Numbered from the stretch's first letter, positions 3,808 to 43,610 are shown. The stretch is 64,000 nucleotides of DNA from Rhodothermales bacterium (GCA_963663495.1 OY760427.1:2524040-2588039); one strand, 5' to 3'. Notes: a model not told the origin generated them from the letters alone. Program-made: numbers and translations.

Positions 3808-3825
3808 CGGCGGCGTGCCATAGCA

Positions 3826-6985: not shown

Positions 6986-6990
6986 GGGAA

Positions 6991-12986: not shown

Positions 12987-13045
12987 GCCGCAACATAAAA
13001 AACAAGTAGCGAAAGGTCAAGCACCTGAAGTGGTAGAATGGCAGT

Positions 13046-13224
13046 GGAAGCGGCGCAGGAAGAGATCGCGTATCCGCACGAGAGGACGGCATTATTCACC
13101 TCAAGTCACACACCATACCTGTCAGGTCGAAATACCCGAGATATTCCGACAGCCATGCCAGCGAGAGTTGACCAGAACTGACGAACAATCGAACCGTAAT
13201 GGATGATTTATGGGGGAAGGGCAG
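13046..13224 (-). repeat. Second copy of the 179-bp inverted repeat
   Basis: Reverse complement matches 10165-10343. Confidence 0.85.
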
Positions 13225-27719: not shown

Positions 27720-30490
27720 GTCCGTTCCATCACACACAGTGTCCACTTCAGGAGCTGGATGCTGAAGTTAGAGGGACAGGTATAACCCGACCTCTGAGCT
27801 GGCAGATAAACCTGCTGGGCAAGCTGTTAGGACGTGCGGTAAACAATCAGGCAGGTGAACGCACTGTGCGTATCGTTGAGCGGTTACGGCTGCTGGCGAA
27901 GGAGGCAGCCGCCGAGTGTGACGATTCAAAGCGGGATGAGGCGGCTAGCATCATCAGGGGCTTAAGCCATACGGACCTTGAATGGGTGCTGCGTGCGTTT
28001 AGCACCTTTTTTCATCTGGTAAATCAGAGTGAGCAGCTGGAAATCATTCGAATAAACCGGGACAGGGCACTCCGCCCGGGTACACGGTCGCGGCCAGAGT
28101 CGATTGACGAGTCGGTTGGAGTGTTGAAGAGCTGCGGCTTGACCGCTGACGACTTGATTGATAACCTGCAGTCACTTGACATACAACCCACGCTTACCGC
28201 CCATCCGACTGAGGCACGAAGGCGTACTATTCTGTACAAGCAGCAGGATCTAGCCGAGCTCGTCCGCCAGTGGCAAAGCACGGAGCCCACGCCGGACGAG
28301 CGGCTTGATCTGACTGAAGAAATCCGCGACCAGATAGCCATTCTCCTAGCCACAGACCAGATTCATTCCAGTCGCCCCACCGTCACTGATGAAGTAGAGC
28401 ACGGACTGTACTACCTGCGCAACGCAATATGGGAGACCATCCCGAGAATCCATCAGGATGTTCGCAGGGCTGTACAGCGCCACTATGGCCGGACCATTGA
28501 AATCCCTGTCTTCCTTCGCTACAGATCCTGGATCGGTAGTGATCGGGATGGCAACCCGAATGTCACCGCAAACATTACGCGCAGGACCTTGGAGATGCAC
28601 CGACGCAAGGTGATTGGCCGGTACATCAGTGATTTAAAGGACCTCCGCCGTGAACTGAGCATTTCTGATGTTAAGGTCAGGTTACCCGAGGCATTGTACG
28701 ACTCTCTAAGGGAAGATGAACGCGAGCTGGAGTTAGCACCATCACAGTACAGGATCTTTGGCCGGGAGCCTATCAGGCGCAAGCTTGCGTTTATGATTGT
28801 GCGCCTGCAGGGCTCCATGACAGATGACGGAAGTAAACCCTACGGTATAGAGCAATTCAAGCATGACTTGCGACAATTGGAATCCGCGCTACGGGATGCC
28901 GGATTCGGATTCCTGGCGGATGAGGGGCGGCTAGGACGTGTGATCATACGTGCATCCGCATTTGGGTTTCATCTGGCGGCCCTTGACATCAGGCAACACA
29001 GCAGCCGACACGAAGAAGCCGTGGCATGCCTTCTTTCAATAGCCCAGGTTACAGACAGGTATGTCGGTTTGGACGAGGTGGACAAAATTGCGGTCTTGGA
29101 GCAGGAGCTTGGAAACCCCAGGCCACTCTTGGCGCCCCGCGAGAAAATTCCGGCACCTGCAAGGGATGTAATGGACACCTTTGAGGTGATCAGAGAAATC
29201 GTGGACTCGGACCCCGCAGCGCTCGGGTCCTACATCGTGAGTATGACACACGGTGTGAGTGATTTGCTTGAGGTCATGCTTCTGGCCAAGGAAGTGGGAC
29301 TATGGACCCTCCGCGAGGGTATTGTCTCGTCGCCCCTGGATATCGTCCCGCTGTTTGAGACTATTGGGGACCTACAGGTAGCGGATCAGCTGATGGCCAC
29401 ACTGTTTGCACTGTCGAGCTATCAGCAACATTTGGAGGCCCGCAGCGGTCTGCAGGAAATCATGCTGGGATATTCTGACAGCAACAAGGACGGGGGTTAC
29501 TGGATGGCTAACTGGGCCCTGCACCAGGCCCAGGGGCGTTTAGGACAGGTGTGCCGGGACCACGATGTAGATTTCAGGCTATTTCACGGAAGAGGAGGAT
29601 CTGTAGGCCGCGGCGGAGGGCGCGCAGGGCAAGCGATCATCGCAATGCCGAAGGCGGCCCAAAACGGCCGCATACGATTCACAGAGCAGGGGGAGGTCAT
29701 CTCTTACCGCTACGCATTGCCTGCCATTGCACATCGCCATCTGGAACAAATCACGGGTGCCATGATGCAGGCCGAGGCAGTTGCATCCCAGGGCGCCGAA
29801 GAATTGCGATATGCTGCGACCATGGATCGCATCGCACGCACCTCCATGGAGGCCTACCGCAACTTGGTGTTGAGCCCTGGGCTTTGGGCGTGGTATACCG
29901 CGATTACCCCAATTGAGCAGATAAGCCGGCTTCCCATTGCTTCACGCCCTGTGTCGCGATCCTCAGCCCGAGAGGTGGACTTCGAAGATCTGAGGGCCAT
30001 CCCGTGGGTCTTTGCATGGACACAGACTAGGTACGTCATCCCCGGGTGGTACGGTGTGGGAGCAGGTCTGGACGAAGCCATCAATGATGGCGCGCTGGCA
30101 GAATTGCGCGAAATGTACCGGTCCTGGCCATTCTTTCGAGCCATCATCGGGAACGCAGAAAGAGAAATGGCGCGTGCGCGCCTGAAAATCGCGGAGCGTT
30201 ATGCAAAACTGGCACAGGAAGATGGCCTGCATGAACATATTGAAGCAGACTTTATCCTGGCAAGTAAGGCGATTCTAGCAATCGCGGGCTCCGATAAACT
30301 GCTGGAAGGAAACCCGGTTATTCGCAAATCTATCGCGTTACGTAACCCCTACACCGATATCCTGAACCTGTTGCAGATTGAGCTCATGCGCCGTTACAGG
30401 AAGACCGATGGGGAAGAGCGGGCCCGTGTGCGCCAGGCCTTGTTTCTGAGCGTTAACGGCATCGCGGCGGCAATGCAGAGCACAGGCTAG
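27716..30490 (+). CDS. ppc: Phosphoenolpyruvate carboxylase
   Basis: TAHPTE, SWIGSDRDGNP, GYSDS, FHGRGGSVGRGG, LRAIPWVF, LRNPY. Confidence 0.97.
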   Translation: MSPFHHTQCPLQELDAEVRGTGITRPLSWQINLLGKLLGRAVNNQAGERTVRIVERLRLLAKEAAAECDDSKRDEAASIIRGLSHTDLEWVLRAFSTFFHLVNQSEQLEIIRINRDRALRPGTRSRPESIDESVGVLKSCGLTADDLIDNLQSLDIQPTLTAHPTEARRRTILYKQQDLAELVRQWQSTEPTPDERLDLTEEIRDQIAILLATDQIHSSRPTVTDEVEHGLYYLRNAIWETIPRIHQDVRRAVQRHYGRTIEIPVFLRYRSWIGSDRDGNPNVTANITRRTLEMHRRKVIGRYISDLKDLRRELSISDVKVRLPEALYDSLREDERELELAPSQYRIFGREPIRRKLAFMIVRLQGSMTDDGSKPYGIEQFKHDLRQLESALRDAGFGFLADEGRLGRVIIRASAFGFHLAALDIRQHSSRHEEAVACLLSIAQVTDRYVGLDEVDKIAVLEQELGNPRPLLAPREKIPAPARDVMDTFEVIREIVDSDPAALGSYIVSMTHGVSDLLEVMLLAKEVGLWTLREGIVSSPLDIVPLFETIGDLQVADQLMATLFALSSYQQHLEARSGLQEIMLGYSDSNKDGGYWMANWALHQAQGRLGQVCRDHDVDFRLFHGRGGSVGRGGGRAGQAIIAMPKAAQNGRIRFTEQGEVISYRYALPAIAHRHLEQITGAMMQAEAVASQGAEELRYAATMDRIARTSMEAYRNLVLSPGLWAWYTAITPIEQISRLPIASRPVSRSSAREVDFEDLRAIPWVFAWTQTRYVIPGWYGVGAGLDEAINDGALAELREMYRSWPFFRAIIGNAEREMARARLKIAERYAKLAQEDGLHEHIEADFILASKAILAIAGSDKLLEGNPVIRKSIALRNPYTDILNLLQIELMRRYRKTDGEERARVRQALFLSVNGIAAAMQSTG

Positions 30491-30930
30491 GACATCCACC
30501 AGAGCGAACAGGGTAAATATTGCTTCTGTAAGCAGATACGATGTTGAAGTCCAAAGGAGCCCGTCAGGGTCGTTGGGGTGCCACTAGGCCCGCGCGATGA
30601 ATGATACAATCGCGGCCAAGTTGATTCATCGGTCCGCATCCATTTATCACCCACGCGTTAATGCAACCTTTTCCTGACGTTCTGCGCACCACGACATGCT
30701 GCATGACTTGATTTGTTGTCTGGAGGCTGGGGTAAGGCCATCAGAGTAGTTGGTACCGGAATCGGTGTTCGGGGCTTTCCGTCCATAGCGGGGGTGCTCA
30801 AACGCGCCAGTTGCCTTCGGATAAGGCGGTACTGTTGCGTTTTGCTTTATGAATGGTTACATTCGTGCGGGGGGCTGTTGGGCAACTAGTGCTCCAGCTC
30901 GGGAAGGATGTTGCGAGCGAGGAATGATTT

Positions 30931-32658
30931 ATGTGTTATTGTAGGCTGGCGGTAGTGATAGTGTTCGTGCTGGTGGCAAGTTGTGACAGTGTGTTCGAGC
31001 CAGACATTGGACCTGCACAGTCCGAACATGTCGGTAACGTCCGGCTGTGGTATCAGGAAGCCATGGGCACCTCAAGTCTTGGCAAGGCGGCAGTGGACAG
31101 CACGGAGCTGGCAATTCTTGCTGCACTTGTACGAGAATATCCGCCCGACTGGCAGCAGGCAGTGGCATGGGTGGACGCGGATGGTGGGGTCCATGTAAGC
31201 ACCGTACTTGGATCGGACAAACCGGCTGTAAGCTTTTCTGATTCGAGTGTGTCAGTTGTACGTACCTTTATTGCCGACTTGGATGAAGCAGGAGAGGTAG
31301 AGGGGGCGAGACTGCTTGAGTTTGCCAATGTCCAGAAGCTGGACCCTGCTGATTTTGTGCAGTACCTGGCCATGTGGCTGACAGGCGACTTTGGCGACCT
31401 TACGATGCTTGTTGCAGAGTACAGTATCGGATATGCTGCTAAGCAGGCGGTGTTCTTTAGGCCCGGCAGCAGTGCTGCTGAGCCTGTAGCACTGTCTTTG
31501 GAGCAGAGGAAATCGGCTGGCAAGGCTCCGCCGGATGGTGTGTGGATGTGTTATGTATCGGAATTCAAACGTGGTTGGGAAATCTGCATAGAAGATGTGG
31601 AACCAGGGTTGGGCAAGGTCGGGTGTATTGAAGGCCCTGCCGAGATTGAGTACACATGTATCTATTTCCCTGGTCATAGCGGTGGCGGAGGAGGATCGGG
31701 TGGCGGCCGTGGTGGAGGAGGTGGAGGAGGTGGAGGAGGCGGAGGAGGCAATGATGACGATGACAACGATGACGAGACCAAGCAGGTCGTTTTTGCGCTG
31801 GATTGCGATAAGACCGTAACTCGCGGTAACAACGGCAGCTGCACCGTTACCGCCACGAAAGAAGACGAGCTGGTTGACCTTAGTCAGTACACCTTTAAAT
31901 GGACATCCTCAACAGGTGCAAGCCGTTCCGGCAAAGGTCTTTACACTTGGGGTGGCATCGCGACCGACAAGACAACCGTAAAGGTAGATGTCAGCGGATT
32001 CAGCGATTCCAAGAAGATCAAAGTGACTGCAAGGTCGAACTGGCGTTCAAAAGCAGTACGGGCAGATTGGGTCTATTCAAACAGGTATCCATATGATGGA
32101 TTCTACGAACTGTTTAACAAAGCCTCGCAAGTTCCAGCGCCGGGGGCAGGAACTGGACCTTGGGCGGGGCGATTCTACATGAAGGACCCGCCTGAAGTGC
32201 ACACGACGATACATATACACCACAAATTCGCCCAGTCGGGCCCTGCCTATCCGGGTGCAAATGACACCTGCGCGCGATCATCCACATTACGGGAAAATGA
32301 AACCCACCGGACTGTCAATAATCGCTGTGGCACATCTAAAGAATTGGAATCATATTTCCACATGGTTTTGGCACACGAGCGGGATCACGAGGCCGGAATC
32401 AACGAGTGTCTTACGTCCAGCTCAAAGGCGAAGGACACGATGAAGAAATTAGAAAAGACCGTTGCCAACAGCAGCGCCGACCTGCAGGATAGTGCACAAG
32501 ATTTATGGGAAGAGTTCTATGATAATTCACTGACACAGTCTGGGCTCTCGGGAAAATCCTATGCAAGCCTTGACGAGCACTTCTGGCACTACGGCATTAT
32601 CGGATGGAAGCTCGGTTGGGTTGTAATAGCTACGGAGAAATTAGTTGATAATTGTTAA
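30931..32658 (+). CDS. Lipoprotein with Gly-rich linker, Ig-like middle region and C-terminal HExxH (zincin-like) domain
   Basis: Lipobox VASC, poly-Gly/Asp linker at 31678-31785, AHERDHE motif. Function is inferred only. Confidence 0.65.
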   Translation: MCYCRLAVVIVFVLVASCDSVFEPDIGPAQSEHVGNVRLWYQEAMGTSSLGKAAVDSTELAILAALVREYPPDWQQAVAWVDADGGVHVSTVLGSDKPAVSFSDSSVSVVRTFIADLDEAGEVEGARLLEFANVQKLDPADFVQYLAMWLTGDFGDLTMLVAEYSIGYAAKQAVFFRPGSSAAEPVALSLEQRKSAGKAPPDGVWMCYVSEFKRGWEICIEDVEPGLGKVGCIEGPAEIEYTCIYFPGHSGGGGGSGGGRGGGGGGGGGGGGGNDDDDNDDETKQVVFALDCDKTVTRGNNGSCTVTATKEDELVDLSQYTFKWTSSTGASRSGKGLYTWGGIATDKTTVKVDVSGFSDSKKIKVTARSNWRSKAVRADWVYSNRYPYDGFYELFNKASQVPAPGAGTGPWAGRFYMKDPPEVHTTIHIHHKFAQSGPAYPGANDTCARSSTLRENETHRTVNNRCGTSKELESYFHMVLAHERDHEAGINECLTSSSKAKDTMKKLEKTVANSSADLQDSAQDLWEEFYDNSLTQSGLSGKSYASLDEHFWHYGIIGWKLGWVVIATEKLVDNC

Positions 32659-32669
32659 ATGGTGACGCA

Positions 32670-33341
32670 ATGAAGATGAAAACGATGTTGTTATTGTTCA
32701 TCCTGATTCCGGTCGGACTCCGGGCGCAATCGAACGGTCTGATGTTTAAGGACGGCGAATGGCAAAAACCGACGCCTGCTGCGGCTCTACGCGCATTCGA
32801 GGCAGACCCAAACGGCGATTCTGACGATTCCGATAAGCCCATCCTTGCCGTATTGCGCCAACGATATCAAGCGTTCACGGATGAAGAGCTGAACGCACTA
32901 GCCGAGAACCTCGTAGTAATGATTCGCGAAGGAACGCCTGAGCAAGCGTATAATGCGTTTGTTGTGCTGCTCTTTTCTGGCCGGCGACAGTTCGCCCCCA
33001 GTGAAGATACCCCATACGCGGGAGCAAAAGATATATTTATTCGCCTGTACGAGTCAGGCCTGGACAGAAGATCAGAGGGTAAGGGATTTTCCATAACCTG
33101 GAAATCCGCACTGCGGGGTGTTTACTCTGCCGGTGGATACGATTACGTTCGGAACCTGTTCGGAGCGAGTGAACTGCCGCCCCCTTGCCAATATCAACTA
33201 AGACGCCCGGTTGAAAATCCGTGCCCGAATAAGGGCACTTGGTGCGATGCCGGATTGATATTGTTGTCAAAAGAAGACGAGCATGCACCAGACAGCGAGC
33301 TGTGGCGCAGGCGCTGCGGCCAACCTAGGATAGGTTTTTAG
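32670..33341 (+). CDS. Secreted Cys-containing partner protein, copy 1
   Basis: Signal peptide MKMKTMLLLFILIPVGLRA|Q. Starts 11 nt after the lipoprotein stop. Confidence 0.75.
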   Translation: MKMKTMLLLFILIPVGLRAQSNGLMFKDGEWQKPTPAAALRAFEADPNGDSDDSDKPILAVLRQRYQAFTDEELNALAENLVVMIREGTPEQAYNAFVVLLFSGRRQFAPSEDTPYAGAKDIFIRLYESGLDRRSEGKGFSITWKSALRGVYSAGGYDYVRNLFGASELPPPCQYQLRRPVENPCPNKGTWCDAGLILLSKEDEHAPDSELWRRRCGQPRIGF

Positions 33342-33570
33342 GTCCATGTAGGAGATGCTGGAATGCAAGCAGCTGCACTGGTGATGGCCGCATTTATGAC
33401 TCTGGACGCAAACGGACGGCATATTGCTTACGGAGGGCGCAAAGTAAACGCCCACACCTACTTTAATGCTTCGTGCAATCAAGGTAGAACCGAGGGAAGG
33501 CAGACCTAGGCCTACCGTTCAACCGGTACCCCTACTTAACATTGTAATTCATGCCGCTTAGATTGGCGGC

Positions 33571-34809
33571 ATGGTGGTTCAACATCAGAATCTGAAGACA
33601 CTGCGTGCCGCTCCATGTGAGTTGACAGAGGTCATGGAGCAGCATCCTGACGATGGTCGCACAGCGATAAGTCGCCGTGTGAGTGAAACGTTTGGCTTTT
33701 ATGATGCCTTAGGGCGTGTGCAGCACAGCAGTTGTTTGCAGGCGCTCAAGACACTCGAAGCCGAGGGGGCGCTGTCCTTACCTACACCGAAGCGCGTGGT
33801 CCGAAGCACAGTGCCTCGTTTGTTGGACGAACCGGTACCTGCGCCTGTTGGAGTGCCGACATTGCTCAAGGATGTGCGCGGCCTGGAGTTGGAATTGGTA
33901 GAAGATGCCGGGCAGCGTGCGATCTGGAATACGCTTGTGGAGGCCGAGCATCCGTTGTGTGCGCCACGGTTTGCCGGACGGCAGTTGCGCTATCTTGTCG
34001 GGAGCGAGCATGGCTACATCGGAGCGATAGGCTTTGCGGCTGCGGCGCTGTATCTGAAGGCGCGCGACAGATGGATGGCGTGGTCGGACGAGCAGCGTGA
34101 GGACTACCGGGACCATGTCGTGGGTTTGAATCGGTTCCTGATTCGCTCCATGGTGCGGATCAGGAACCTTGCCAGCCATACATTGGGGAAGGTATTGCGT
34201 CGTTTTCCGGAGGATTTTGAGAACCGTTCAAACAGGTATCCATATGATGGATTCTACGAACTGTTTAACAAAGCCTCGCAAGTTCCAGCGCCGGGGGCAG
34301 GAACTGGACCTTGGGCGGGGCAATTCTACATGAAGGACCCGCCTGAAGTGCACACGACGATACATATACACCACAAATTCTCCCAGTCGGGCCCTGCCTA
34401 TCCGGGTGCAAATGACACCTGCGCGCGATCATCCACATTACGGGAAAATGAAACCCACCGGACTGTCAATAATCGCTGTGGCACATCTAAAGAATTGGAA
34501 TCATATTTCCACATGGTTTTGGCACACGAGCGGGATCACGAGGCCGGAATCAACGAGTGTCTTACGTCCAGCTCAAAGGCGAAGGACACGATGAAGAAAT
34601 TAGAAAAGACCGTTGCCAACAGCAGCGCCGACCTGCAGGATAGTGCACAAGATTTATGGGAAGAGTTCTATGATAATTCACTGACACAGTCTGGGCTCTC
34701 GGGAAAATCCTATGCAAGCCTTGACGAGCACTTCTGGCACTACGGCATTATCGGATGGGAGCTCGGTTGGGTTGGAATAGCTACGGAGAAATTAGTTGAT
34801 AATTGTTAA
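33571..34809 (+). CDS. Chimeric DUF4338(IS4)-HExxH ORF, copy 1
   Basis: The first ~220 aa match the IS4 at 41457-42575. From SNRYPYDG onward it matches the lipoprotein C-terminus. Confidence 0.75.
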   Translation: MVVQHQNLKTLRAAPCELTEVMEQHPDDGRTAISRRVSETFGFYDALGRVQHSSCLQALKTLEAEGALSLPTPKRVVRSTVPRLLDEPVPAPVGVPTLLKDVRGLELELVEDAGQRAIWNTLVEAEHPLCAPRFAGRQLRYLVGSEHGYIGAIGFAAAALYLKARDRWMAWSDEQREDYRDHVVGLNRFLIRSMVRIRNLASHTLGKVLRRFPEDFENRSNRYPYDGFYELFNKASQVPAPGAGTGPWAGQFYMKDPPEVHTTIHIHHKFSQSGPAYPGANDTCARSSTLRENETHRTVNNRCGTSKELESYFHMVLAHERDHEAGINECLTSSSKAKDTMKKLEKTVANSSADLQDSAQDLWEEFYDNSLTQSGLSGKSYASLDEHFWHYGIIGWELGWVGIATEKLVDNC

Positions 34810-34820
34810 ATGGTGACGCA

Positions 34821-35474
34821 ATGAAGATGAAAACGATGTTGTTATTGTTCATCCTGATTCCGGTCGGACTCCGGGCGCAATCGAACGGTCTGATGTTTAA
34901 GGACGGCGAATGGCAAAAACCGACGCCTGCTGCGGCTCTACGCGCATTCGAGGCAGACCCAAACGGCGATTCTGACGATTCCGATAAGCCCATCCTTGCC
35001 GTATTGCGCCAACGATATCAAGCGTTCACGGATGAAGAGCTGAACGCACTAGCCGAGAACCTCGTAGTAATGATTCGCGAAGGAACGCCTGAGCAAGCGC
35101 ATAATGCGTTTGATGTGCTGCTCTTTTCTGGCCGGCCACAGTTCGCCCCCAGTGAAGATACCCCATACGCGGGAGCAAAAGATATATTTATTCGCCTGTA
35201 CGAGTCAGGCCTGGACAGAAGATCAGACGGTCTAACCAGGAAAGTCGCACTGCTGGGTGTTTACTCTGCCGGTGGATACGATTACGTTCGGAACCTGTTC
35301 GGAGCGAGTGAACTGCCGCCCCCTTGCCAATATCAACTAAGGCGTTCGGTTGAAAATCCGTGCCCGAATAAGGGCACTTGGTGCGATGCCGGATTGATAT
35401 TGTTGTCAAATGAAGACGAGCATGCACCAGACAGCGAGCTGTGGCGCAGGCGCTGCGGCCAACCTAGGAGATAG
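34821..35474 (+). CDS. Secreted partner protein, copy 2
   Basis: Paralog of 32670-33341 with a variant central region and a 2-nt insertion at the extreme C-terminus. Confidence 0.75.
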   Translation: MKMKTMLLLFILIPVGLRAQSNGLMFKDGEWQKPTPAAALRAFEADPNGDSDDSDKPILAVLRQRYQAFTDEELNALAENLVVMIREGTPEQAHNAFDVLLFSGRPQFAPSEDTPYAGAKDIFIRLYESGLDRRSDGLTRKVALLGVYSAGGYDYVRNLFGASELPPPCQYQLRRSVENPCPNKGTWCDAGLILLSNEDEHAPDSELWRRRCGQPRR

Positions 35475-35711
35475 GTTTTTAGGTCCATGTAGGAGATGCT
35501 GGAATGCAAGCAGCTGCACTGGTGATGGCCGCATTTATGACTCTGGACGCAAACGGACGGCATATTGCTTACGGAGGGCGCAAAGTAGACGCCCACACCT
35601 ACTTTAATGCTCCGTGCAATCAAGGTAGAACCGAGGGAAGGCAGACCTAGGCCTACCGTTCAACCGGTACCCCTACTTAACTTTATAATTCATGCCGCTT
35701 AGATTGGCGGC

Positions 35712-36950
35712 ATGGTGGTTCAACATCAGATTCTGAAGACACTGCGTGCCGCTCCATGTGAGTTGACAGAGGTCATGGAGCAGCATCCTGACGATGGTCG
35801 CACAGCGATAAGTCGCAGTGTGAGTGAAGCGTTTGGCTTTTATGATGCCTTAGGGCGTGTGCAGCACAGCAGTTGTTTGCAGGCGCTCAAGACACTCGAA
35901 GCCGAGGGTGCGCTGTCCTTGCCTGCACCGAAGCGCGTGGTCCGAAGCGCTGTGCCTCGTTTGTTGGACGAACCGGTACCTGCGCCTGTTGGAGTGCCGA
36001 CGTTGCTCAAGGATGTGCGCGGCCTGGAGTTGGAATTGGTAGAAGATGCCGGGCAGCGTGCGATCTGGAATACGCTTGTGGAGGCCGAGCATCCGATGTG
36101 TGCGCCACGGTTTGCCGGGCGGCAGTTGCGCTATCTTGTCGGGAGCGAGCATGGCTACATCGGAGCGATAGGCTTTGCGGCTGCAGCGCTGTATCTGAAG
36201 GCGCGCGACAGATGGATGGCGTGGTCGGACGAGCAGCGTGAGGACTACCGGGACCATGTCGTGGGTTTGAATCGGTTCCTGATTCGCTCCATGGTGCGGA
36301 TCAGGAACCTTGCCAGCCATACACTGGGGAAGGTATTGCGTCGTTTTCCGGAGGATTTTGAGAACCGTTCAAACAGGTATCCATATGATGGATTCTACGA
36401 ACTGTTTAACAAAGCCTCGCAAGTTCCAGCGCCGGGGGCAGGAACTGGGCCTTGGGCGGGGCGATTCTACATGAAGGACCCGCCTGAAGTGCACACGACG
36501 ATACATATACACCACAAATTCTCCCAGTCGGGCCCTGCCTATCCGGGTGCAAATGACACCTGCGCGCGATCATCCACATTACGGGAAAATGAAACCCACC
36601 GGACTGTCAATAATCGCTGTGGCACATCTAAAGAATTGGAATCATATTTCCACATGGTTTTGGCACACGAGCGGGATCACGAGGCCGGAATCAACGAGTG
36701 TCTTACGTCCAGCTCAAAGGCGAAGGACACGATGAAGAAATTAGAAAAGACCGTTGCCAACAGCAGCGCCGACCTGCAGAATAGTGCACAAGATTTATGG
36801 GAAGAGTTCTATGATAATTCACTGACACAGTCTGGGCTCTCGGGAAAATCCTATGCAAGCCTTGACGAGCACTTCTGGCACTACGGCATTATCGGATGGG
36901 AGCTCGGTTGGGTTGGAATAGCTACGGAGAAATTAGTTGATAATTGTTAA
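35712..36950 (+). CDS. Chimeric DUF4338(IS4)-HExxH ORF, copy 2
   Basis: As copy 1. Confidence 0.75.
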   Translation: MVVQHQILKTLRAAPCELTEVMEQHPDDGRTAISRSVSEAFGFYDALGRVQHSSCLQALKTLEAEGALSLPAPKRVVRSAVPRLLDEPVPAPVGVPTLLKDVRGLELELVEDAGQRAIWNTLVEAEHPMCAPRFAGRQLRYLVGSEHGYIGAIGFAAAALYLKARDRWMAWSDEQREDYRDHVVGLNRFLIRSMVRIRNLASHTLGKVLRRFPEDFENRSNRYPYDGFYELFNKASQVPAPGAGTGPWAGRFYMKDPPEVHTTIHIHHKFSQSGPAYPGANDTCARSSTLRENETHRTVNNRCGTSKELESYFHMVLAHERDHEAGINECLTSSSKAKDTMKKLEKTVANSSADLQNSAQDLWEEFYDNSLTQSGLSGKSYASLDEHFWHYGIIGWELGWVGIATEKLVDNC

Positions 36951-36961
36951 ATGGTGACGCA

Positions 36962-37630
36962 ATGAAGATGAAAACGATGTTGTTATTGTTCATCCTGATT
37001 CCGGTCGGACTCCGGGCGCAATCGAACGGTCTGATGTTTAAGGACGGCGAATGGCAAAAACCGACGCCTGCTGCGGCTCTACGCGCATTCGAGGCAGACC
37101 CAAACGGCGCTGACGATTCCGATAAGCCCATCCTTGCCGTATTGCGCCAACGATATCAAGCGTTCACGGATGAAGAGCTGAACGCACTAGCCGAGAACCT
37201 CGTAGTAATGATTCGCGAAGGAACGCCTGAGCAAGCGGATAATGCGTTTGATGTGCTGCTCTTTTCTGGCCGGCGACAGTTCGCCCCCAGTGAAGATACC
37301 CCATACGCGGGAGCAAAAGATATATTTATTCGCCTGTACGAGTCAGGCCTGGACAGAAGATCAGAGGGTAAGGGATTTTCCATAACCTGGAAATCCGCAC
37401 TGCAGGGTGTTTACTCTGCCGGTGGATACGATTACGTTCGGAACCTGTTCGGAGCGAGTGAACTGCCGCCCCCTTGCCAATATCAACTAAGGCGTCCGGT
37501 TGAAAATCCGTGCCCGAATAAGGGCACTTGGTGCGATGCCGGATTGATATTGTTGTCAAATGAAGACGAGCATGCACCAGACAGCGAGCTGTGGCGCAGG
37601 CGCTGCGGCCAACCTAGGATAGGTTTTTAG
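36962..37630 (+). CDS. Secreted partner protein, copy 3
   Basis: Paralog with a 3-nt in-frame deletion. Confidence 0.75.
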   Translation: MKMKTMLLLFILIPVGLRAQSNGLMFKDGEWQKPTPAAALRAFEADPNGADDSDKPILAVLRQRYQAFTDEELNALAENLVVMIREGTPEQADNAFDVLLFSGRRQFAPSEDTPYAGAKDIFIRLYESGLDRRSEGKGFSITWKSALQGVYSAGGYDYVRNLFGASELPPPCQYQLRRPVENPCPNKGTWCDAGLILLSNEDEHAPDSELWRRRCGQPRIGF

Positions 37631-37859
37631 GTCCATGTAGGAGATGCTGGAATGCAAGCAGCTGCACTGGTGATGGCCGCATTTATGACTCTGGACGCAA
37701 ACGGACGGCATATTGCTTACGGAGGGCGCAAAGTAAACGCCCACACCTACTTTAATGCTTCGTGCAATCAAGGTAGAACCGAGGGAAGGCAGACCTAGGC
37801 CTACCGTTCAACCGGTACCCCTACTTAACTTTATAATTCATGCCGCTTAGATTGGCGGC

Positions 37860-39098
37860 ATGGTGGTTCAACATCAGATTCTGAAGACACTGCGTGCCGC
37901 TCCATGTGAGTTGACAGAGGTCATGGAACAGCATCCGGACGATGGTCGCACAGCGATAAGTCGCCGTGTGAGTGAAGCGTTTGGCTTTTATGATGCCTTA
38001 GGGCGTGTGCAGCACAGCAGTTGTTTGCAGGCGCTCAAGACACTCGAAGCCGAGGGGGCGCTGTCCTTACCTACACCGAAGCGCGTGGTCCGAAGCACAG
38101 TGCCTCGTTTGTTGGACGAACCGGTACCTGCGCCTGTTGGAGTGCCGACATTGCTCAAGGATGTGCGCGGCCTGGAGTTGGAATTGGTAGAAGATGCCGG
38201 GCAGCGTGCGATCTGGAATACGCTTGTGGAGGCCGAGCATCCGTTGTGTGCGCCACGGTTTGCCGGACGGCAGTTGCGCTATCTTGTCGGGAGCGAGCAT
38301 GGCTACATCGGAGCGATAGGCTTTGCGGCTGCGGCGCTGTATCTGAAGGCGCGCGACAGATGGATGGCGTGGTCGGACGAGCAGCGTGAGGACTACCGGG
38401 ACCATGTCGTGGGTTTGAATCGGTTCCTGATTCGCTCCATGGTGCGGATCAGGAACCTTGCCAGCCATACATTGGGGAAGGTATTGCGTCGTTTTCTGGA
38501 GGATTTTGAGAACCGTTCAAACAGGTATCCATATGATGGATACTGCGAACTGTTTAACAAAGCCTCACAAGTTCCAGCGCCGGGGGCAGGAACTGGGCCT
38601 TGGGCGGGGCGATTCTACATGAAGGACCCGCCTGAAGTGCACACGACGATACATATACACCACAAATTCGCCCAGTCGGGCCCTGCCTATCCGGGTGCAA
38701 ATGACACCTGCGCGCGATCATCCACATTACGGGAAAATGAAACCCACCGGACTGTCAATAATCGCTGTGGCACATCTAAAGAATTGGATTCATATTTCCT
38801 CATGGTTTTGGCACACGAGCGGGATCACGAGGCCGGAATCAACGAGTGTCTTACGTCCAGCTCAAGGGCAAAGGACACGATGAAGAAATTAGAAAAGACC
38901 GTTGCCAACAGCAGCACCGACCTGCAGGATAGTGCACAAGATTTATGGGAAAAGTTCTATGATAATTCACTGACACAGTCTGGGCTCTCGGGAAAATCCT
39001 ATGCAAGCCTTGACGAGCACTTCTGGTACTACGGCATTATCGGATGGGAGCTCGGTTGGGTTGGAATAGCTACGGAGAAATTAGTTGATAATTGTTAA
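37860..39098 (+). CDS. Chimeric DUF4338(IS4)-HExxH ORF, copy 3
   Basis: As copy 1. Confidence 0.75.
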   Translation: MVVQHQILKTLRAAPCELTEVMEQHPDDGRTAISRRVSEAFGFYDALGRVQHSSCLQALKTLEAEGALSLPTPKRVVRSTVPRLLDEPVPAPVGVPTLLKDVRGLELELVEDAGQRAIWNTLVEAEHPLCAPRFAGRQLRYLVGSEHGYIGAIGFAAAALYLKARDRWMAWSDEQREDYRDHVVGLNRFLIRSMVRIRNLASHTLGKVLRRFLEDFENRSNRYPYDGYCELFNKASQVPAPGAGTGPWAGRFYMKDPPEVHTTIHIHHKFAQSGPAYPGANDTCARSSTLRENETHRTVNNRCGTSKELDSYFLMVLAHERDHEAGINECLTSSSRAKDTMKKLEKTVANSSTDLQDSAQDLWEKFYDNSLTQSGLSGKSYASLDEHFWYYGIIGWELGWVGIATEKLVDNC

Positions 39099-39109
39099 AT
39101 GGTGACGCA

Positions 39110-39763
39110 ATGAAGATGAAAACGATGTTGTTATTGTTCATCCTGATTCCGGTCGGACTCCGGGCGCAATCGAACGGTCTGATGTTTAAGGACGGCGAAT
39201 GGCAAAAACCGACGCCTGCTGCGGCTCTACGCGCATTCGAGGCAGACCCAAACGGCGATTCTGACGATTCCGATAAGCCCATCCTTGCCGTATTGCGCCA
39301 ACGATATCAAGCGTTCACGGATGAAGAGCTGAACGCACTAGCCGAGAACCTCGTAGTAATGATTCGCGAAGGAACGCCTGAGCAAGCGCATAATGCGTTT
39401 GATGTGCTGCTCTTTTCTGTCCGGCGACAGTTCGCTGAAGATACCCCATACGCGGGAGCAAAAGATATATTTATTCGCCTGTACGAGTCAGGCCTGGACA
39501 GAAGATCAGACGGTCTAACCTGGAAAGCCGCACTGCAGGGTGTTTACTCTGCCGGTGGATACGATTACGTTCGGAACCTGTTCGGAGCGAGTGAACTGCC
39601 GCCCCCTTGCCAATATCAACTAAGACGCCCGGTTGAAAATCCGTGCCCGAATAAGGGCACTTGGTGCGATGCCGGATTGATATTGTTGTCAAATGAAGAC
39701 GAGCATGCACCAGACAGCGAGCTGTGGCGCAGGCGCTGCGGCCAACCTAGGATAGGTTTTTAG
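39110..39763 (+). CDS. Secreted partner protein, copy 4
   Basis: Paralog that is 6 nt and 12 nt shorter at two in-frame positions than copy 1. Confidence 0.75.
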   Translation: MKMKTMLLLFILIPVGLRAQSNGLMFKDGEWQKPTPAAALRAFEADPNGDSDDSDKPILAVLRQRYQAFTDEELNALAENLVVMIREGTPEQAHNAFDVLLFSVRRQFAEDTPYAGAKDIFIRLYESGLDRRSDGLTWKAALQGVYSAGGYDYVRNLFGASELPPPCQYQLRRPVENPCPNKGTWCDAGLILLSNEDEHAPDSELWRRRCGQPRIGF

Positions 39764-39933
39764 GTCCATGTAGGAGATGCTGGAATGCAAGCAGCTGCAC
39801 TGGTGATGGCCGCATTTATGACTCTGGACGCAAACGGACGGCATATTGCTTACGGAGGGCGCAAAGTAGACGCCCACACCTACTTTAATGCTCCGTGCAA
39901 TCAAGGTAGAACCGAGGGAAGGCAGACCTAGGC

Positions 39934-42634
39934 CTACCGTGCGCCCAGTTCAGATACCAGACACTGTATAATATTTGTCTGTTTTTGCAAGTTTGGTGTA
40001 GTGATTGGTTCTTTCAAGAGGTGCGGAGCCCTCGGACCGGAGTGATGCTTGCACCGGGGATGCGGGAAACGTAGCATCATTTGGCATGCGCGAGGCGCTT
40101 GCCTATGCGATGGACATACGTCGGCGCTATAACGCCCGGTAGCTCTGGCGTCTTTACAGTTCTCTTCCAAATCCCCGTTGCCATCGCACTAAACGTTGGC
40201 GCGGCAACGACGCTGGGGGGCAGGTATCACTCCCGGCTTTGGGTACGTTTATTGCTTCGCGTGCTCGTCATTCTCGCTTAACGATGAGAACTTCTCTCCG
40301 TATCATATGGTATCGCTTCTCAAGGACGGCAAAGGTCTTGGCCCCTATCTCCAACCGGCTGTAGCCGCGCCAGATGACCTTGGAGCCTGGAGGCCGGTCC
40401 TTCTTCCGATCCATATAGCCACCAAAGACGGCCACCACCCGAATAGCAGCCCCGAGTGTCTTTGGAGGCGGCAGTCCAAACTCGTCGGCAAGCTCGTGCA
40501 ACAGGCGCAGTTCCATCTCATCAAACAATCCTTCCGGCGACGCTTCGGGTTCCTCGCGCCCCAGAAGCGTCATCAATAGCAGGCGCCACGCCATCACCAT
40601 ACAGATCGTAATGGCATTGTGCAGACTCTTGGCCTGCCGCATACCCAGCCGCTCTACCGCACAGCCGCTCTTGAGCACACGGAACATGTCTTCCACACGC
40701 CACCGCAACACGTAGTAGCCTACCACCTCAATAGCTTGCTCCAGCGTCGTAACCTCTTGGGTCGTCAATAGATACCACTGTACCGGTCGCTCTCCGGCTG
40801 GCGGCTGCACCTCCCGAACATGAATCGCACTGACCTGCACCGGATCCTCCTGCGACTTACCCGGCGCCGGAAGCGATAGGCGGCGGAAACGTACCTGCAT
40901 CCGCGCCAGACGGCCCGACCGCCCCTTATGCTTGACTCGACCTGACTTCACGCGGCGGCTCAAACGAGCAATCGGCACTTCCATGTGTCCTGCCGGACGG
41001 CCCGACCGCATGGTCGCAAACAACTTGGGAGACTTTTTACCCAATAGCCGATTCACCTTGGCTCGCACCAATATGTCCACACGCCCTGCGCTGCGCTGCT
41101 GCGCCAGGATCGCAAACACATCCGCCTCGCGGTCCATGACACACAGCACACGGGTACGACCACTCAGATGCGAGGCGGCTTCCGCTATGTCCCGCACGCC
41201 GTCTATCCATAACTGTGTCTTAGGAGCAGGAGCCTCTTGGTCGGTTGTATAGGCACAGCGTAAGATCCCCAACGGCACACCGTCCTCACCCACCGCCAGC
41301 GTAGCGTGCAAATGCACTCCTTTTGCCTTTGATGTGGTCTGATTGTGCCCTATCACATCCAACCCCTCGCACGCCGGACGAGTACTGTAGCTGATGTCCG
41401 TGCCATCCTGGATGCACAGCACCGTCCGTTGCGTACGCATCCGCTCTATCGTGCGATCACGATGCGGCTGCAAAATCTTCTCCGGCGTGATCTCGTTCTC
41501 GGCCGCTTTCTCCAAAAAACGGTAGTATCCCCGCCCGATCAGCGTCCAGATTGGCCGTGATCAATTCTCCTGGAGTGCGTGAAAGCATGGCCACGCTGTG
41601 TACCAACTGGTCCGAACGGCGTTTGTCCCCCAACGGCGCTCCACCAAACTCCTGTTCTGCCCATGTATCACTGGCCAGCCCCGCACCCACCTCCAGCTCG
41701 GGATACGCCTCCACAACCGGCACTCCAAGCTCCTGCCTCCAATCACCACCCAGATCATACACGAAAACCGCCTTCTTCTCTTTGGTGCATGCATTACCAG
41801 GAGCATGACGCCCACGCCCCTTGGTTTTTCCCACACACTGAAACCCCGCAGCCCGAAAACACGTGCCGCGATGTTCGGGGCTCACAAAGGTCTCTATCAC
41901 CCACGGCACATACCCGTAATCGTTCTCAAAATCCTCCGGTAAACGACGCAATACCTTCCCCAGTGTATGGCTGGCAAGGTTCCTGATCCGCACCATGGAG
42001 CGAATCAGGAACCGATTCAAACCCACGACATGGTCCCGGTAGTCCTCACGCTGCTCGTCCGACCACGCCATCCATCTGTCGCGCGCCTTCAGATACAGCG
42101 CCGCAGCCGCAAAGCCTATCGCTCCGATGTAGCCATGCTCGCTCCCGACAAGATAGCGCAACTGCCGTCCGACAAACCGTGGCGCACACATCGGATGCTC
42201 GGCCTCCACAAGCGTATTCCAGATCGCACGCTGCCCGGCATCTTCTACCAATTCCAACTCCAGGCCGCGCACATCCTTGAGCAATGTCGGCACTCCAACA
42301 GGCGCAGGTACCGGTTCGTCCAACAAACGAGGCACTGTGCTTCGGACCACGCGCTTCGGTGCAGGCAAGGACAGCGCACCCTCGGCTTCGAGTGTCTTGA
42401 GCGCCTGCAAACAACTGCTGTGCTGCACACGCCCTAAGGCATCATAAAAGCCAAACGCTTCACTCACACGGCGACTTATCGCTGTACGACCATCGTCAGG
42501 ATGCTGCTCCATGACCTCTGTCAACTCACATGGAGCGGCACGCAGTGTCCTCAGAATCTGATGTTGAACCACCATGCCGCCAATCTAAGCGGCATGAATT
42601 GCAAAGTCAAGTAGGGGTACCGGTTTAACGGTAG
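39934..42634 (-). mobile_element. Full-length DUF4338-IS4 element
   Basis: Imperfect 18-bp TIRs starting CTACCGT. 8-bp TSD ACCTAGGC at 39926-39933 and 42635-42642. Confidence 0.9.
40268..42575 (-). pseudogene. DUF4338-IS4 transposase, frameshifted
   Basis: Split into 41457-42575 and 40268-41515 at DADRA/GYYRFL. DDE residues in IQDGT, MDREAD and RWRVEDMFRVLKSGC. Confidence 0.85.
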
Positions 42635-42797
42635 ACCTAGGCGGCGACTTCCAGGATGCACTGCGACACCGCGCCGACGAAATCAAGAGCTCCCAACCAC
42701 AGAATCGGATGTTCGCCGAGAACTCTCCAAAACGGGTTCTCAAAGGCACATCGGAGCAAACAAATGCTCCGTCCACCGGCCTATTCTGACATGCGCA

Positions 42798-43610
42798 TTA
42801 CAATTCCGATCGAAGACAGCGCAGCCGTGCTACCACGGACAAATGATCGGATGCAGTCATGCTCGGGATCGTTTCAAACGATAGCACCTCCAACTCCGTA
42901 CTCACCAGAATGTAGTCCAGTCGCCGAAGCAGCATACCCCTGAATCCGGTATAGGTCTCTTCCGGTCCCGACGGCGCGCTAAGCGGCACGGACCGCGCAT
43001 CAGCCAACCTGCCGGCAGTCAGCGTTTCCAATACTTCTGAGCCAGGTAACGCATTGAAATCACCCATCACAACCACGCAGCCCGTCGGGGATAAGTTGTC
43101 CGCCCTTTCCACAATCAAACGCGCACTCTGCAGACGAGCCTCCTCGCCGCGATGATCGAAGTGGGTGTTGATTATCATTGTCGTGTCCTCACTGATCTTG
43201 TCCTCAAACGCAGCCCATGTCGCAATCCGTGGCAAAGCAGCATCCCAACCGACACTCCCAATTTCCAGCGGAAACTGAGAAAGCCAGAACCTGCCACTGC
43301 GAACCACACGGAAACGGTCACGCCTGTAAAAGATTGCCGCGTACTCCCCGCCTTCATGCCCGTCATCACGCCCTACACCTATCCACCCAAAAGCCGGCAG
43401 CACTCGGGCCAGGTTCTGCATCTGGTGATGCAATGCTTCCTGAATACCGATGATATCCGCAGCGCTCATGATAGCGGCTACCTCTTCTGCCCGGTACTGC
43501 CAGCTCCGCTCCCCATCGCCGGGATTGTCATACCGAATATTGAAGGTCATAACCATTAACGAGGTGTCTGGAGATACACCTAATAGCCCTAGCAGAATAA
43601 GTACCGCCAT
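42798..43610 (-). CDS. Endonuclease/exonuclease/phosphatase family protein
   Basis: VMTFNIRY, IGIQEA, NTHFDH, GDFNA, RLDYI, SDHL. Confidence 0.9.
   Translation of the reverse strand: MAVLILLGLLGVSPDTSLMVMTFNIRYDNPGDGERSWQYRAEEVAAIMSAADIIGIQEALHHQMQNLARVLPAFGWIGVGRDDGHEGGEYAAIFYRRDRFRVVRSGRFWLSQFPLEIGSVGWDAALPRIATWAAFEDKISEDTTMIINTHFDHRGEEARLQSARLIVERADNLSPTGCVVVMGDFNALPGSEVLETLTAGRLADARSVPLSAPSGPEETYTGFRGMLLRRLDYILVSTELEVLSFETIPSMTASDHLSVVARLRCLRSEL

What the first reader, a model, noticed from the sequence alone, without database searches (positions are those of the whole stretch)
32076..39933. IS-driven tandem amplification with an alternating (ABAB) mosaic pattern
Seen: four copies of C-domain + partner. 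Partner copies 1 and 3 share the long GKGFSIT variant and the intergenic GTAAAC/GCTTCG alleles. Copies 2 and 4 share the short DGLT variant and GTAGAC/GCTCCG. IS fragments 1 and 3 match each other, while fragment 2 shares alleles with the full IS at 42.5 kb. Inference: monomer duplication, divergence, then a ~4.3-kb dimer duplication plus gene conversion, i.e. an accordion-type array.
Basis: partly seen in the sequence, partly recalled or inferred. Interest (0 to 1): 0.65.

Follow-up and report, generated by a model that had tools for sequence, protein, structure and literature searches.

The report
Four-copy tandem gene amplification, IS-joined
A sponge-associated bacterium carries a real, old four-copy head-to-tail amplification of the tail of a secreted HExxH protein gene plus its partner gene, glued together by a piece of an insertion sequence; this is an ordinary kind of rearrangement, but the cargo is an uncharacterised gene pair whose partner gene is multiplied in related genomes too.

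Summary
The array is real. Units of 2151, 2141 and 2148 bp plus a partial 1425-bp unit span 32076-39940. Each unit holds the last 583 bp of a 575-aa HExxH lipoprotein gene, a complete secreted partner gene, a 163-bp spacer and the first 720 bp of an IS4-family element. All three joints are identical (IS nt 720, CG, gene), so there was one founding illegitimate join followed by unequal crossing-over.

Short-read contigs from four independent runs show three array haplotypes at about 2:1:1, summing to 2.9-5.3 times flank depth. That argues against strain haplotypes stitched together by the assembler.

The ABAB pattern exists but is local: one 30-bp partner patch, two spacer SNPs and the 3' half of the IS pieces. 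It is interrupted by ABBA sites and absent from the C-domain, where copy 4 is the outlier. A clean dimer duplication is only partly supported; patchy gene conversion fits better.

- The IS pieces are inverted relative to the complete IS, which abuts copy 4 at the same boundary through a shared 14-bp terminal repeat. This fits a template-switch or inversion-duplication origin.
- Partner genes are also present in three copies in two related genomes.

This is a new member of a known kind, of moderate interest.

The parts
30931..32658 (+). Full-length gene: 575-aa predicted lipoprotein (lipobox VASC). Order is an N-terminal region, a Gly/Asp-rich linker, an Ig-like region and a C-terminal HExxH domain (HERDH).
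   Evidence: ORF. Homologues align over the whole length at 37% identity. No Pfam or NCBIfam match.
32076..34226 (+). Unit 1 (2151 bp): C-domain coding part of the intact gene, partner 1, spacer, IS piece 1 and the CG filler.
34227..36367 (+). Unit 2 (2141 bp)
36368..38515 (+). Unit 3 (2148 bp)
38516..39940 (+). Unit 4 (partial, 1425 bp): C-domain, partner 4 and spacer. It ends in the 14-bp IS terminal repeat, which is also the right end of the complete IS.
32670..33341 (+). Partner gene copy 1 (223 aa from the ATG; signal peptide; long GKGFSIT variant).
   Evidence: family alignment
34821..35474 (+). Partner gene copy 2 (short DGLT variant; a 2-bp insertion alters the last 3 codons).
36962..37630 (+). 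Partner gene copy 3 (long variant; 3-bp deletion).
39110..39763 (+). Partner gene copy 4 (short variant; 6-bp deletion).
33505..34224 (+). IS piece 1: the first 720 bp of the IS, read from its left end. It is followed by the CG filler at 34225-34226.
   Evidence: 97.8% identical to 42641-41922; joint sequence
35646..36365 (+). IS piece 2
37794..38513 (+). IS piece 3. Together with 41922-42641 it forms a 720-bp inverted repeat around unit 4 and the IS body.
33571..34809 (+). Chimeric ORF 1 (412 aa): the first about 218 aa of the transposase (a truncated DUF4338/DruA-like domain) fused in frame to the HExxH C-domain. It has no signal peptide.
35712..36950 (+). Chimeric ORF 2 (412 aa)
37860..39098 (+). 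Chimeric ORF 3 (412 aa)
39927..42641 (-). Complete IS4-family element (2715 bp) with 14-bp terminal inverted repeats CCTAGG(C/T)CTACCGT. In this copy the transposase is split into 372-aa and 415-aa ORFs. There is no target-site duplication.
   Evidence: Pfam DruA + Tnp_DNA_bind + DDE_Tnp_1 + Dimer_Tnp_Tn5. NF033590 scores 290 bits against a cutoff of 160. Adding the 8 nt seen in other genomic copies gives a single 771-aa ORF. Flanks examined.
27716..30490 (+). PEP carboxylase: conserved left neighbour of the inserted block.
42798..43610 (-). Exo/endonuclease/phosphatase-family gene. In related genomes it directly follows PEP carboxylase.

Best explanation
This is a genuine chromosomal gene duplication-amplification, fixed in an uncultivated sponge-associated Rhodothermales bacterium.

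Founding event. One illegitimate event joined nt 720 of an IS4-family element to codon 383 of the upstream HExxH lipoprotein gene. The joint has a 2-nt filler (CG) and no homology. This created a 2.15-kb repeat unit made of the C-domain, the partner gene, the spacer and the IS piece.

Expansion and divergence. Unequal homologous crossing-over between units then raised the copy number to four. The copies have since diverged by 0.5-2.2% and exchanged short patches by gene conversion, among themselves and, for IS piece 2, with a full-length IS. This produces a locally ABAB-looking mosaic.

Origin of the IS piece (inferred, about 40% confident). The founding event was probably a replication template switch of the tandem-inversion-duplication or ODIRA type. 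The nascent strand crossed from the right terminal repeat of the complete IS to its left terminal repeat (14 nt, 13 of 14 complementary) and copied 720 nt of the IS backwards. It then switched again into the gene. This explains why the IS pieces are inverted relative to the complete IS and start exactly at the shared 14-mer.

Consequence. There are four intact partner genes. There are also three leaderless chimeric ORFs that begin with the transposase start codon.

Likely benefit (inferred). The selected benefit, if any, is partner dosage or diversity. The partner looks like a secreted helical-repeat binding protein for the HExxH domain, of inhibitor or immunity type.
For: Shown:
- Four copies, with three identical joints GAGAAC-CG-TTCAAAC.
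- An X3 short-read contig independently carries the IS-to-gene joint (loose end at 32076).
- A 327-bp contig carries the joint from the partner end into the IS left end.
- Unitigs for the three haplotypes at 33203/33206/33207 (ACC = U1 + U4, GTT = U2, GTC = U3) have depths 15.4/8/6, 38.9/21.9/19.4, 99.6/58/38.5 and 169.4/89.5/67.8 in X1, X2, X4 and X5. That is about 2:1:1 in each run. The sums are 2.9, 4.5, 5.3 and 5.2 times flank depth.
- The source contig is 5.9 Mb.
- The IS pieces lie on the + strand and the complete IS on the - strand. Both abut the same ...GAAGGCAGA boundary through CCTAGGCCTACCGT.
- Incompatible site partitions alternate along the unit at least 4 times.

Support for the partner as the selected cargo:
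- All three indels within the body of the partner coding sequence are in frame (3, 6 and 12 bp). The fourth (2 bp) alters only the last three codons.
- Substitutions are 16 nonsynonymous to 3 synonymous. Two sites are tri-allelic (32949 Y/H/D/H and 33115 R/L/Q/Q; p about 0.02). These fall in columns that vary across the family.
- The HExxH-partner pair is conserved in relatives.
- Three tandem partner paralogues occur in L086 and in L087.
- The partner model is a helical repeat with pLDDT 87, and the indel lies in a loop.
Against: - No long reads could be examined. Order and orientation within the array, and the joint from U4 to the IS right end, rest on the assembly alone; no short-read contig spans 39911-39970.
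- The U4-private alleles and the short partner variant are absent from the X1-X5 Logan contigs, which collapse variants. They are seen only in part, in X7.
- The second joint has no microhomology or inverted repeat, which the template-switch model does not predict directly.
- The complete IS lacks a target duplication, so its local history is more complex than a simple insertion.
- The IS pieces differ from this IS copy at 15-17 of 720 sites, so they may derive from another copy.
- A dN/dS of about 1.3-1.7 is not significantly different from neutral drift.
- No expression data were found.
- Neither the HExxH domain nor the partner has been tested for function.
Confidence: 0.7

Rival explanations
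1. Different founder event. The IS first inserted after the partner gene in the + orientation. An illegitimate sister-strand exchange between IS nt 720 and the gene made the duplication. The terminal complete IS was later flipped in place by recombination between its own 14-bp terminal repeats, or it was replaced through a 14-bp direct-repeat deletion from a tail-to-tail IS pair.
For: The joint from the partner spacer to the IS left end looks like a normal transposase-made insertion joint. The IS is at about 15-20 times flank depth in the genome, so insertions are frequent. IS piece 2 shares 5 alleles with a full-length IS, which shows that the pieces and full copies do interact.
Against: It needs at least one more event than the template-switch model. 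It equally fails to explain the missing target duplication. A 14-bp inverted repeat is a poor substrate for recombination, although the template-switch model has the same weakness.
Confidence: 0.25
2. The array is a selected functional system rather than a neutral relic. It would provide extra, diversifying copies of an inhibitor or immunity-like partner, possibly transcribed from the IS left end. Alternatively, the 5'-truncated C-domain copies could serve as silent cassettes that donate variation to the expressed gene by gene conversion.
For: Partner multiplication recurs in L086 and L087. The partner copies keep their reading frame. Their variation is concentrated in positions that vary across the family, with two tri-allelic sites. 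The copies persist at 1-2% divergence in all runs. Patchy gene conversion is evident. No terminator-like site lies between the partner and the IS piece, and there is one sigma-70-like match at 33536-33564.
Against: The C-domain copies are 94.8-97.9% identical, so they offer little diversity. dN/dS is not significantly above 1. The promoter match is at chance level (1 found against 0.6 expected). The in-frame fusion has a one-in-three chance of arising at random. There are no expression or binding data. Paralogues in other genomes are partner-only duplications without gene fragments or IS pieces.
Confidence: 0.25
3. Assembly artefact: strain haplotypes, or a collapsed or expanded repeat, wrongly laid out in tandem.
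For: The copies differ by 1-2%, as co-existing strains might. The source is a host-associated community. The Logan contigs do not show every variant.
Against: Array depth is 2.9-5.3 times flank depth in four runs. Haplotype depth is 2:1:1 in every run, as expected from U1 + U4, U2 and U3. The chimeric joints are present in independent short-read contigs. The contig is 5.9 Mb.
Confidence: 0.05
4. Part of the signal comes from an excised 2.15-kb circle (C-domain, partner, IS piece) rather than from chromosomal copies.
For: A circle would give the same two joints and extra depth.
Against: Three distinct haplotypes hold fixed 2:1:1 ratios across samples. The assembly places them in one chromosome. 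The unit contains no replication or excision function.
Confidence: 0.03

Closest known systems
Bacterial gene duplication-amplification (tandem arrays that expand by RecA-dependent unequal crossing-over; reviews by Sandegren & Andersson 2009 and Reams & Roth 2015, cited from my own knowledge)
   Same: Head-to-tail units share one novel join-point. Read depth is elevated. Copies are later homogenised or exchanged by gene conversion.
   Different: Typical natural cases form between directly repeated IS or rrn copies and are unstable and nearly identical. Here the join lies between an IS interior and a gene interior with no homology. The copies are 0.5-2.2% diverged, and the same state is seen in every run examined.
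Tandem inversion duplication (Kugelberg et al. 2010 Genetics 185:65, listed as ref. 24 in PMC4689423) and ODIRA inverted triplication (PMC4689423, PMC10766183)
   Same: Direct copies are separated by a short inverted segment. One joint lies at a short inverted repeat, here the 14-bp IS terminal repeats. The other joint is asymmetric, as expected after a palindromic junction is remodelled.
   Different: The inverted repeat arms are 2.7 kb apart rather than adjacent. No intermediate has been observed. ODIRA needs a replication origin inside the amplicon, and none is evident. Here the link is inference from the final structure only.
Orphan toxin-CT/immunity cassettes downstream of cdiA or rhs genes (Poole et al. 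2011 PLoS Genet, own knowledge) and arrays of orphan immunity genes in Bacteroidales (Ross et al. 2019 Nature, own knowledge)
   Same: 5'-truncated copies of the 3' end of a secreted protein gene, each followed by its partner gene, sit downstream of the intact gene and are interspersed with transposase fragments.
   Different: Here the cassettes are near-identical copies of the same pair, not different toxins. The protein has no known delivery domain. The partner is secreted. Neither toxicity nor protection has been shown.
Secreted metalloprotease plus adjacent periplasmic inhibitor pairs (for example AprA/AprI and Serratia Inh; own knowledge)
   Same: An extracytoplasmic HExxH protein is encoded immediately upstream of a signal-peptide-bearing partner of about 220 aa or less.
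   Different: There is no sequence or fold similarity. The C-domain model has no PDB match. The partner resembles ARM/HEAT repeats only weakly (best E 0.15), whereas AprI is a beta-barrel.
Poxvirus 'gene accordion' (Elde et al. 2012 Cell, own knowledge)
   Same: Tandem amplification followed by divergence of the copies.
   Different: The defining rapid expansion and contraction under selection is not seen. Copy number is about the same in all runs examined.

Membership tests
Tandem gene duplication-amplification array | Two or more head-to-tail copies sharing one identical novel join-point | tested here: met
   Three identical joints...GATTTTGAGAAC-CG-TTCAAACAGG..., at 34224/34227, 36365/36368 and 38513/38516.
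Tandem gene duplication-amplification array | Copy number above that of the flanks in independent sequencing data | tested here: met
   The haplotype unitigs sum to 2.9-5.3 times flank depth in X1, X2, X4 and X5, in a 2:1:1 ratio.
IS-mediated amplification by homologous recombination between flanking IS copies (including IS26-type translocatable units) | Complete IS copies, or long direct repeats, bounding the original unit, so that the joint is a clean IS copy | tested here: not met
   Each joint holds only the first 720 bp of the IS, fused to the gene interior through a 2-nt filler. There is no IS sequence at the left border, 30491-32075.
Tandem inversion duplication / ODIRA | An inverted segment lying between direct copies | tested here: met
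   The 720-bp pieces are on the + strand and the parental complete IS is on the - strand.
Tandem inversion duplication / ODIRA | Joints located at short inverted repeats (quasi-palindromes) | tested here: inconclusive
   Joint 1 coincides with the 14-bp IS terminal repeats (13 of 14 complementary), but these are 2.7 kb apart. Joint 2 shows no inverted repeat or microhomology. The similarity of 32065-32100 to the IS end is weak (score in the top 1% of windows).
Tandem inversion duplication / ODIRA | A symmetric inverted-triplication precursor | not testable with these tools
   This needs ancestral or sister strains, or long reads.
Polymorphic toxin with orphan CT/immunity cassettes (CDI/Rhs type) | Cassettes encode divergent C-terminal toxin domains on a conserved N-terminal delivery region | tested here: not met
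   The C-domain copies are 94.8-97.9% identical. Homologues share the whole architecture rather than swapped C-termini. No Rhs, FHA or LXG domains were found.
Polymorphic toxin with orphan CT/immunity cassettes (CDI/Rhs type) | The partner neutralises a toxic activity of the C-domain | not testable with these tools
   This requires co-expression assays.
IS4 family insertion sequence (the element at 39927-42641) | DDE transposase of the IS4/Tn5 type | tested here: met
   PF01609 and PF02281 match. NF033590 scores 289.9 bits against a cutoff of 160 on the restored 771-aa ORF.
IS4 family insertion sequence (the element at 39927-42641) | Terminal inverted repeats and a flanking target-site duplication | tested here: inconclusive
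   14-bp terminal repeats are present. There is no direct repeat of any length at the two flanks, GAAGGCAGA and CGGCGACTT.
Gene 'accordion' | Copy number expands and contracts between samples or over time | tested here: inconclusive
   Copy number is about four in X1, X2, X4 and X5. X3 is at about 1.6-2.3 times by contig depth, and X6-X8 are too shallow to judge.

The most novel reading that the evidence does not exclude
The HExxH lipoprotein and its secreted helical-repeat partner form a previously undescribed effector and inhibitor (immunity-like) pair, largely confined to sponge-associated Rhodothermales and Gemmatimonadota. In this reading the partner is under recurrent selection for more and more varied copies. 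The window would then show that process caught in the act, with an IS-derived joint supplying each extra copy with a start site, and with gene conversion shuffling a hypervariable binding loop.
Probability: 0.2. Interest if true: 0.6.

Novelty: new member of a known kind. Interest (0 to 1): 0.35.

Why it matters
- Tandem amplifications are usually seen as short-lived laboratory events. This one is fixed and 1-2% diverged in an uncultivated symbiont, and its joints can be read base by base. It is a natural record of how such arrays start, here possibly by a template switch at IS terminal repeats, and how they age by patchy gene conversion.
- The array points to an uncharacterised two-gene module. 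The HExxH domain gives a confident model (pLDDT 94.5) with no PDB fold match. Its secreted partner is independently multiplied in related genomes, which suggests a binding or neutralising relationship worth testing.
- For genome annotation, the three 412-aa ORFs are transposase and C-domain chimeras, not genuine genes.

Tried and rejected
- Exact-protein look-ups of the 575-aa protein, the chimera and the partner found nothing on record.
- The word-index search with the full protein returned only the window's own chimera, probably because the Gly-rich linker swamped the candidate list.
- The PDB sequence search with the family profile hit only scFv Gly-Ser linkers, an artefact.
- Foldseek gave no match for the C-domain model (best E 4.2). 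For the partner it gave only weak ARM/HEAT-like matches (best E 0.15).
- The genome-contig scan with the C-domain found no close relative. The metagenome scan returned one locus with a single partner.
- I tested whether the gene sequence at the breakpoint is a pseudo-IS-end used by the transposase. The similarity is only in the top 1% of windows, and the geometry (direct, not inverted, relative to the IS pieces) does not make a transposon, so I rejected it as the main explanation.
- I looked for a left terminal repeat or target duplication that would make the whole 12-kb block a transposon. None was found.
- I considered homologous recombination between distant inverted IS copies as the cause of the orientation flip. 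I rejected it on logic, because such an inversion keeps the orientation of the IS relative to its left flank.
- No RNA runs were found.
- Short-read contigs could not confirm the joint from U4 to the IS right end or the U4-private alleles, because they collapse variants.
- The Kugelberg 2010 paper is not held in the library.
Full report
**What is in the sequence**

Self-comparison of 30-43.5 kb shows four direct copies with start-to-start spacings of 2151, 2141 and 2148 bp. U1 is 32076-34226, U2 34227-36367 and U3 36368-38515. U4 is partial, 38516-39940. Each full unit has five parts.
- The last 583 bp of a 575-aa ORF (30931-32658). This ORF has a lipoprotein-type signal (VASC), a Gly/Asp-rich linker, an Ig-like region and a C-terminal domain with an HERDH motif.
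- A complete partner ORF. It starts at an ATG 12 nt after the upstream stop codon, has a signal peptide and encodes 217-223 aa.
- A 163-bp spacer.
- The first 720 bp of an insertion sequence.
- Two bases, CG.

The three joints are identical...GATTTTGAGAAC-CG-TTCAAACAGG.... Because the joint is in frame, each one creates a 412-aa chimeric ORF. Its first 218 or so residues come from the transposase and the rest is the HExxH domain, with no signal peptide.

**The IS**

The complete element is 39927-42641 on the minus strand (2715 bp). It has 14-bp terminal inverted repeats, CCTAGG(C/T)CTACCGT.
- Its two overlapping ORFs carry DruA/DUF4338, Tnp_DNA_bind, DDE_Tnp_1 and the Tn5 dimerisation domain.
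- The X1 IS contig (depth 187, about 18 times flank), which represents other genomic copies, carries 8 extra nt after 41524. Adding them gives one 771-aa ORF. That ORF scores 290 bits on the NCBIfam IS4 model NF033590, against a cutoff of 160.
- DUF4338 has been described as a GNAT-like domain (PMC10853773).
- IS depth in short-read contigs is about 15-20 times flank depth, so the genome holds many copies.
- This copy has no target-site duplication. Its flanks are GAAGGCAGA and CGGCGACTT.

The three IS pieces read from the IS left end on the plus strand. The complete IS has its left end at 42641 and reads on the minus strand. U4 ends at the same boundary (...GAAGGCAGA|CCTAGGCCTACCGT) as U1-U3. 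After the shared 14-mer, however, the sequence continues as the IS right end (GCGCCC...) rather than the left end (TCAACC...). The pieces are therefore inverted copies of the far end of the neighbouring IS, joined through the terminal repeat.

**Is the array real?**

The window comes from a 5.9-Mb contig. Five runs from one host organism (two studies) and three sponge metagenomes hold the sequence. Only Logan short-read contigs were available, and these collapse variants, but three observations are informative.
- The three haplotypes at 33203/33206/33207 (ACC in U1 and U4, GTT in U2, GTC in U3) appear as separate unitigs. Their depths are 15.4/8/6 in X1, 38.9/21.9/19.4 in X2, 99.6/58/38.5 in X4 and 169.4/89.5/67.8 in X5. 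That is 2:1:1 in every run. The sums are 2.9, 4.5, 5.3 and 5.2 times flank depth.
- A 1045-bp collapsed contig of the unit sits at 2.6 times flank depth in X1 and 3.1 times in X4.
- An X3 contig carries the IS-to-gene joint, and a 327-bp contig carries the joint from the partner into the IS left end.

Strain haplotypes stitched in tandem would give a total depth equal to the flank. This is not what is seen.

Some things remain unconfirmed. No contig spans the joint from U4 to the IS right end. The U4-private alleles are seen only in an X7 contig. Long reads were not available.

**The ABAB claim**

- ABAB sites: 33077, the 12-bp indel at 33081-33092, 33093 and 33105 form one 30-bp patch. The others are 33447 and 33471. 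In the IS pieces, 33768-34183 shows U1 = U3 and U2 different at 10 sites; at five of these U2 matches the complete IS.
- Sites against the pattern: 32157 is AABB. 32230, 33203 and 33206 are ABBA. In 33541-33688, U2 = U3 and U1 differs.
- The C-domain has no ABAB site. U4 has 10 private SNPs there against 1 in its remaining 846 bp (p = 0.0008).
- U4 is equidistant from the other three copies (21-23 SNPs).
- Among the sites present in all four copies, 5 of 9 informative SNPs are ABAB (p about 0.43). Adding the IS-piece sites gives 11 of 16 (p about 0.012), but the sites are clustered.

At least four switches between incompatible partitions occur along 2.1 kb. The data fit repeated short-tract conversion and unequal exchange among copies. 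They do not fit one clean dimer duplication.

**Context**

PEP carboxylase places the organism in Rhodothermales; the nearest representative is 70% identical at the amino-acid level. In relatives L002, L003 and L004, PEP carboxylase is followed within about 20 bp by the exo/endonuclease/phosphatase gene and moaA. In the window these neighbours are separated by 30491-42797. The gene, the array and the IS are therefore a 12.3-kb insertion. No recognisable left terminal repeat or duplication marks its border.

**What is being amplified**

The C-domain has 137 homologues at E of 1e-3 or better among 1.84 billion representative proteins, always at the C-terminus.
- GPW, two Cys, one Asn, HExxH and one Trp are invariant. 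The Gly-rich linker and the Ig-like region are shared as well.
- There is no Pfam, NCBIfam or PDB sequence match.
- The AlphaFold model is confident (pLDDT 94.5), yet Foldseek finds nothing in the PDB (best E 4.2).
- The few homologues that carry a source name are 'hypothetical protein' from a Bacteroidota MAG and Candidatus Palauibacter; most of those looked up are unnamed.

The gene pair is conserved. In L082, a 454-aa homologue is followed 19 nt later by a 226-aa partner, each 37% identical to the window proteins.

The partner family has 31 clusters. Its model (pLDDT 87) is a helical repeat that resembles ARM/HEAT proteins only weakly.

Partner multiplication recurs.
- L086 has three tandem partner paralogues, 72-76% identical, after one HExxH gene.
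- The related L085 has the third type directly after the gene.
- L087 has three copies, one split by an IS1595 plus restriction-modification insertion.

Within the window, the three indels in the body of the partner coding sequence are in frame. Substitutions are 16 nonsynonymous to 3 synonymous. Two sites are tri-allelic (p about 0.02). The changes fall in columns that vary across the family, including a surface loop.

**Mechanism**

Shown:
- There was one founding join, because all joints are identical.
- Unit number then changed by homologous exchange.
- Copies diverged and converted one another.

Inferred, for the founding event:
- A two-step template switch of the tandem-inversion-duplication or ODIRA kind fits best (PMC4689423, PMC10766183; Kugelberg 2010 as cited there).
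- It predicts an inverted IS segment that starts exactly at the terminal repeat, and a last unit that abuts the parental IS.
- I give it about 40%.
- A + strand insertion followed by in-place inversion or replacement is the main rival.
- The second joint has no homology, so neither model is proven.

Inferred, for function:
- The selective reading is partner dosage or diversity, possibly transcribed from the IS left end.
- The recurrence of partner arrays in other genomes supports it.
- No expression or binding data support it.
- The one promoter-like match is at chance level.

**Verdict**

This is a real and well-preserved example of a known class, gene duplication-amplification. It has an unusual inverted-IS joint and an uncharacterised cargo. 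The ABAB dimer-duplication story is only partly supported.

Noticed in passing
window 32068-32655 (also 34227-34806, 36368-36947, 38516-39095): The HExxH C-domain gives a very confident AlphaFold model (pLDDT 94.5) with no Foldseek match in the PDB and no Pfam or NCBIfam family. It has 137 homologues, always C-terminal; the few with a source name come from a Bacteroidota MAG and Candidatus Palauibacter. It may be an undescribed metal-dependent hydrolase fold.
   Followed up: partly
L086 2358-4718; L087 7995-13683; L085 10001-10678: Related genomes carry three tandem partner paralogues after a single HExxH gene. In L087 the second copy is split by an insertion of IS1595, an N6/N4 methyltransferase and a SacI-like restriction enzyme, and a DDE transposase lies between the gene and the first partner.
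   Followed up: partly
window 41457-41524: The local complete IS lacks 8 nt (GTATCCCC) that are present in the X1 IS contig (depth 187, about 18 times flank). This splits the 771-aa DUF4338-Tn5-type transposase into two ORFs, so this copy is probably defective. The NCBIfam model IS4_FS_Nterm also matches, so a natural two-ORF arrangement is not excluded.
   Followed up: partly
window 37794-38513 and 41922-42641: IS piece 3 and the left 720 bp of the complete IS are 97.6% identical inverted repeats. They bracket unit 4 and the IS body, so this 3.4-kb segment could flip by homologous recombination. Only one isomer is in the assembly.
   Followed up: no
window 10164-13225: 180-bp inverted repeats (94% identical; 10164-10343 and 13046-13225) bracket a 769-aa ORF on the minus strand. 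Within it, 11044-12639 is 67-70% identical in nucleotides to the IS at 39927-42641. This is a second, related IS4-like element with long terminal repeats.
   Followed up: no
window 3571-4135 and 6986-7221: A 319-bp fragment (3818-4135) is 94% identical to the right end of the IS. A 237-bp repeat (3571-3807 = 6986-7221, 97%) lies nearby. The left part of the window is also littered with IS debris.
   Followed up: no
window 30491-42797: In related Rhodothermales, PEP carboxylase is followed directly by the exo/endonuclease/phosphatase gene and moaA. Here 12.3 kb lies between them, comprising the HExxH gene, the array and the IS. This block has slightly lower GC (0.53 against 0.56) and no recognisable left border.
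   Followed up: partly
window 31640-31760: The Gly/Asp low-complexity linker attracts very deep unrelated contigs. One X3 contig there has a 37-nt 'goes back' joint. This may be length polymorphism of the GGN repeat or cross-mapping from host DNA.
   Followed up: no
window 32065-32100: The gene sequence at the left breakpoint (GGTCTA..TTCAAACAGGTATCCATA) resembles the IS left end (GGTCTACCGTTAAACCGGTACCCCTA). The CG filler extends this to a 9-nt identity (ACCGTTCAA) with the end of the IS pieces. The score is only in the top 1% of windows, so this may be coincidence.
   Followed up: partly
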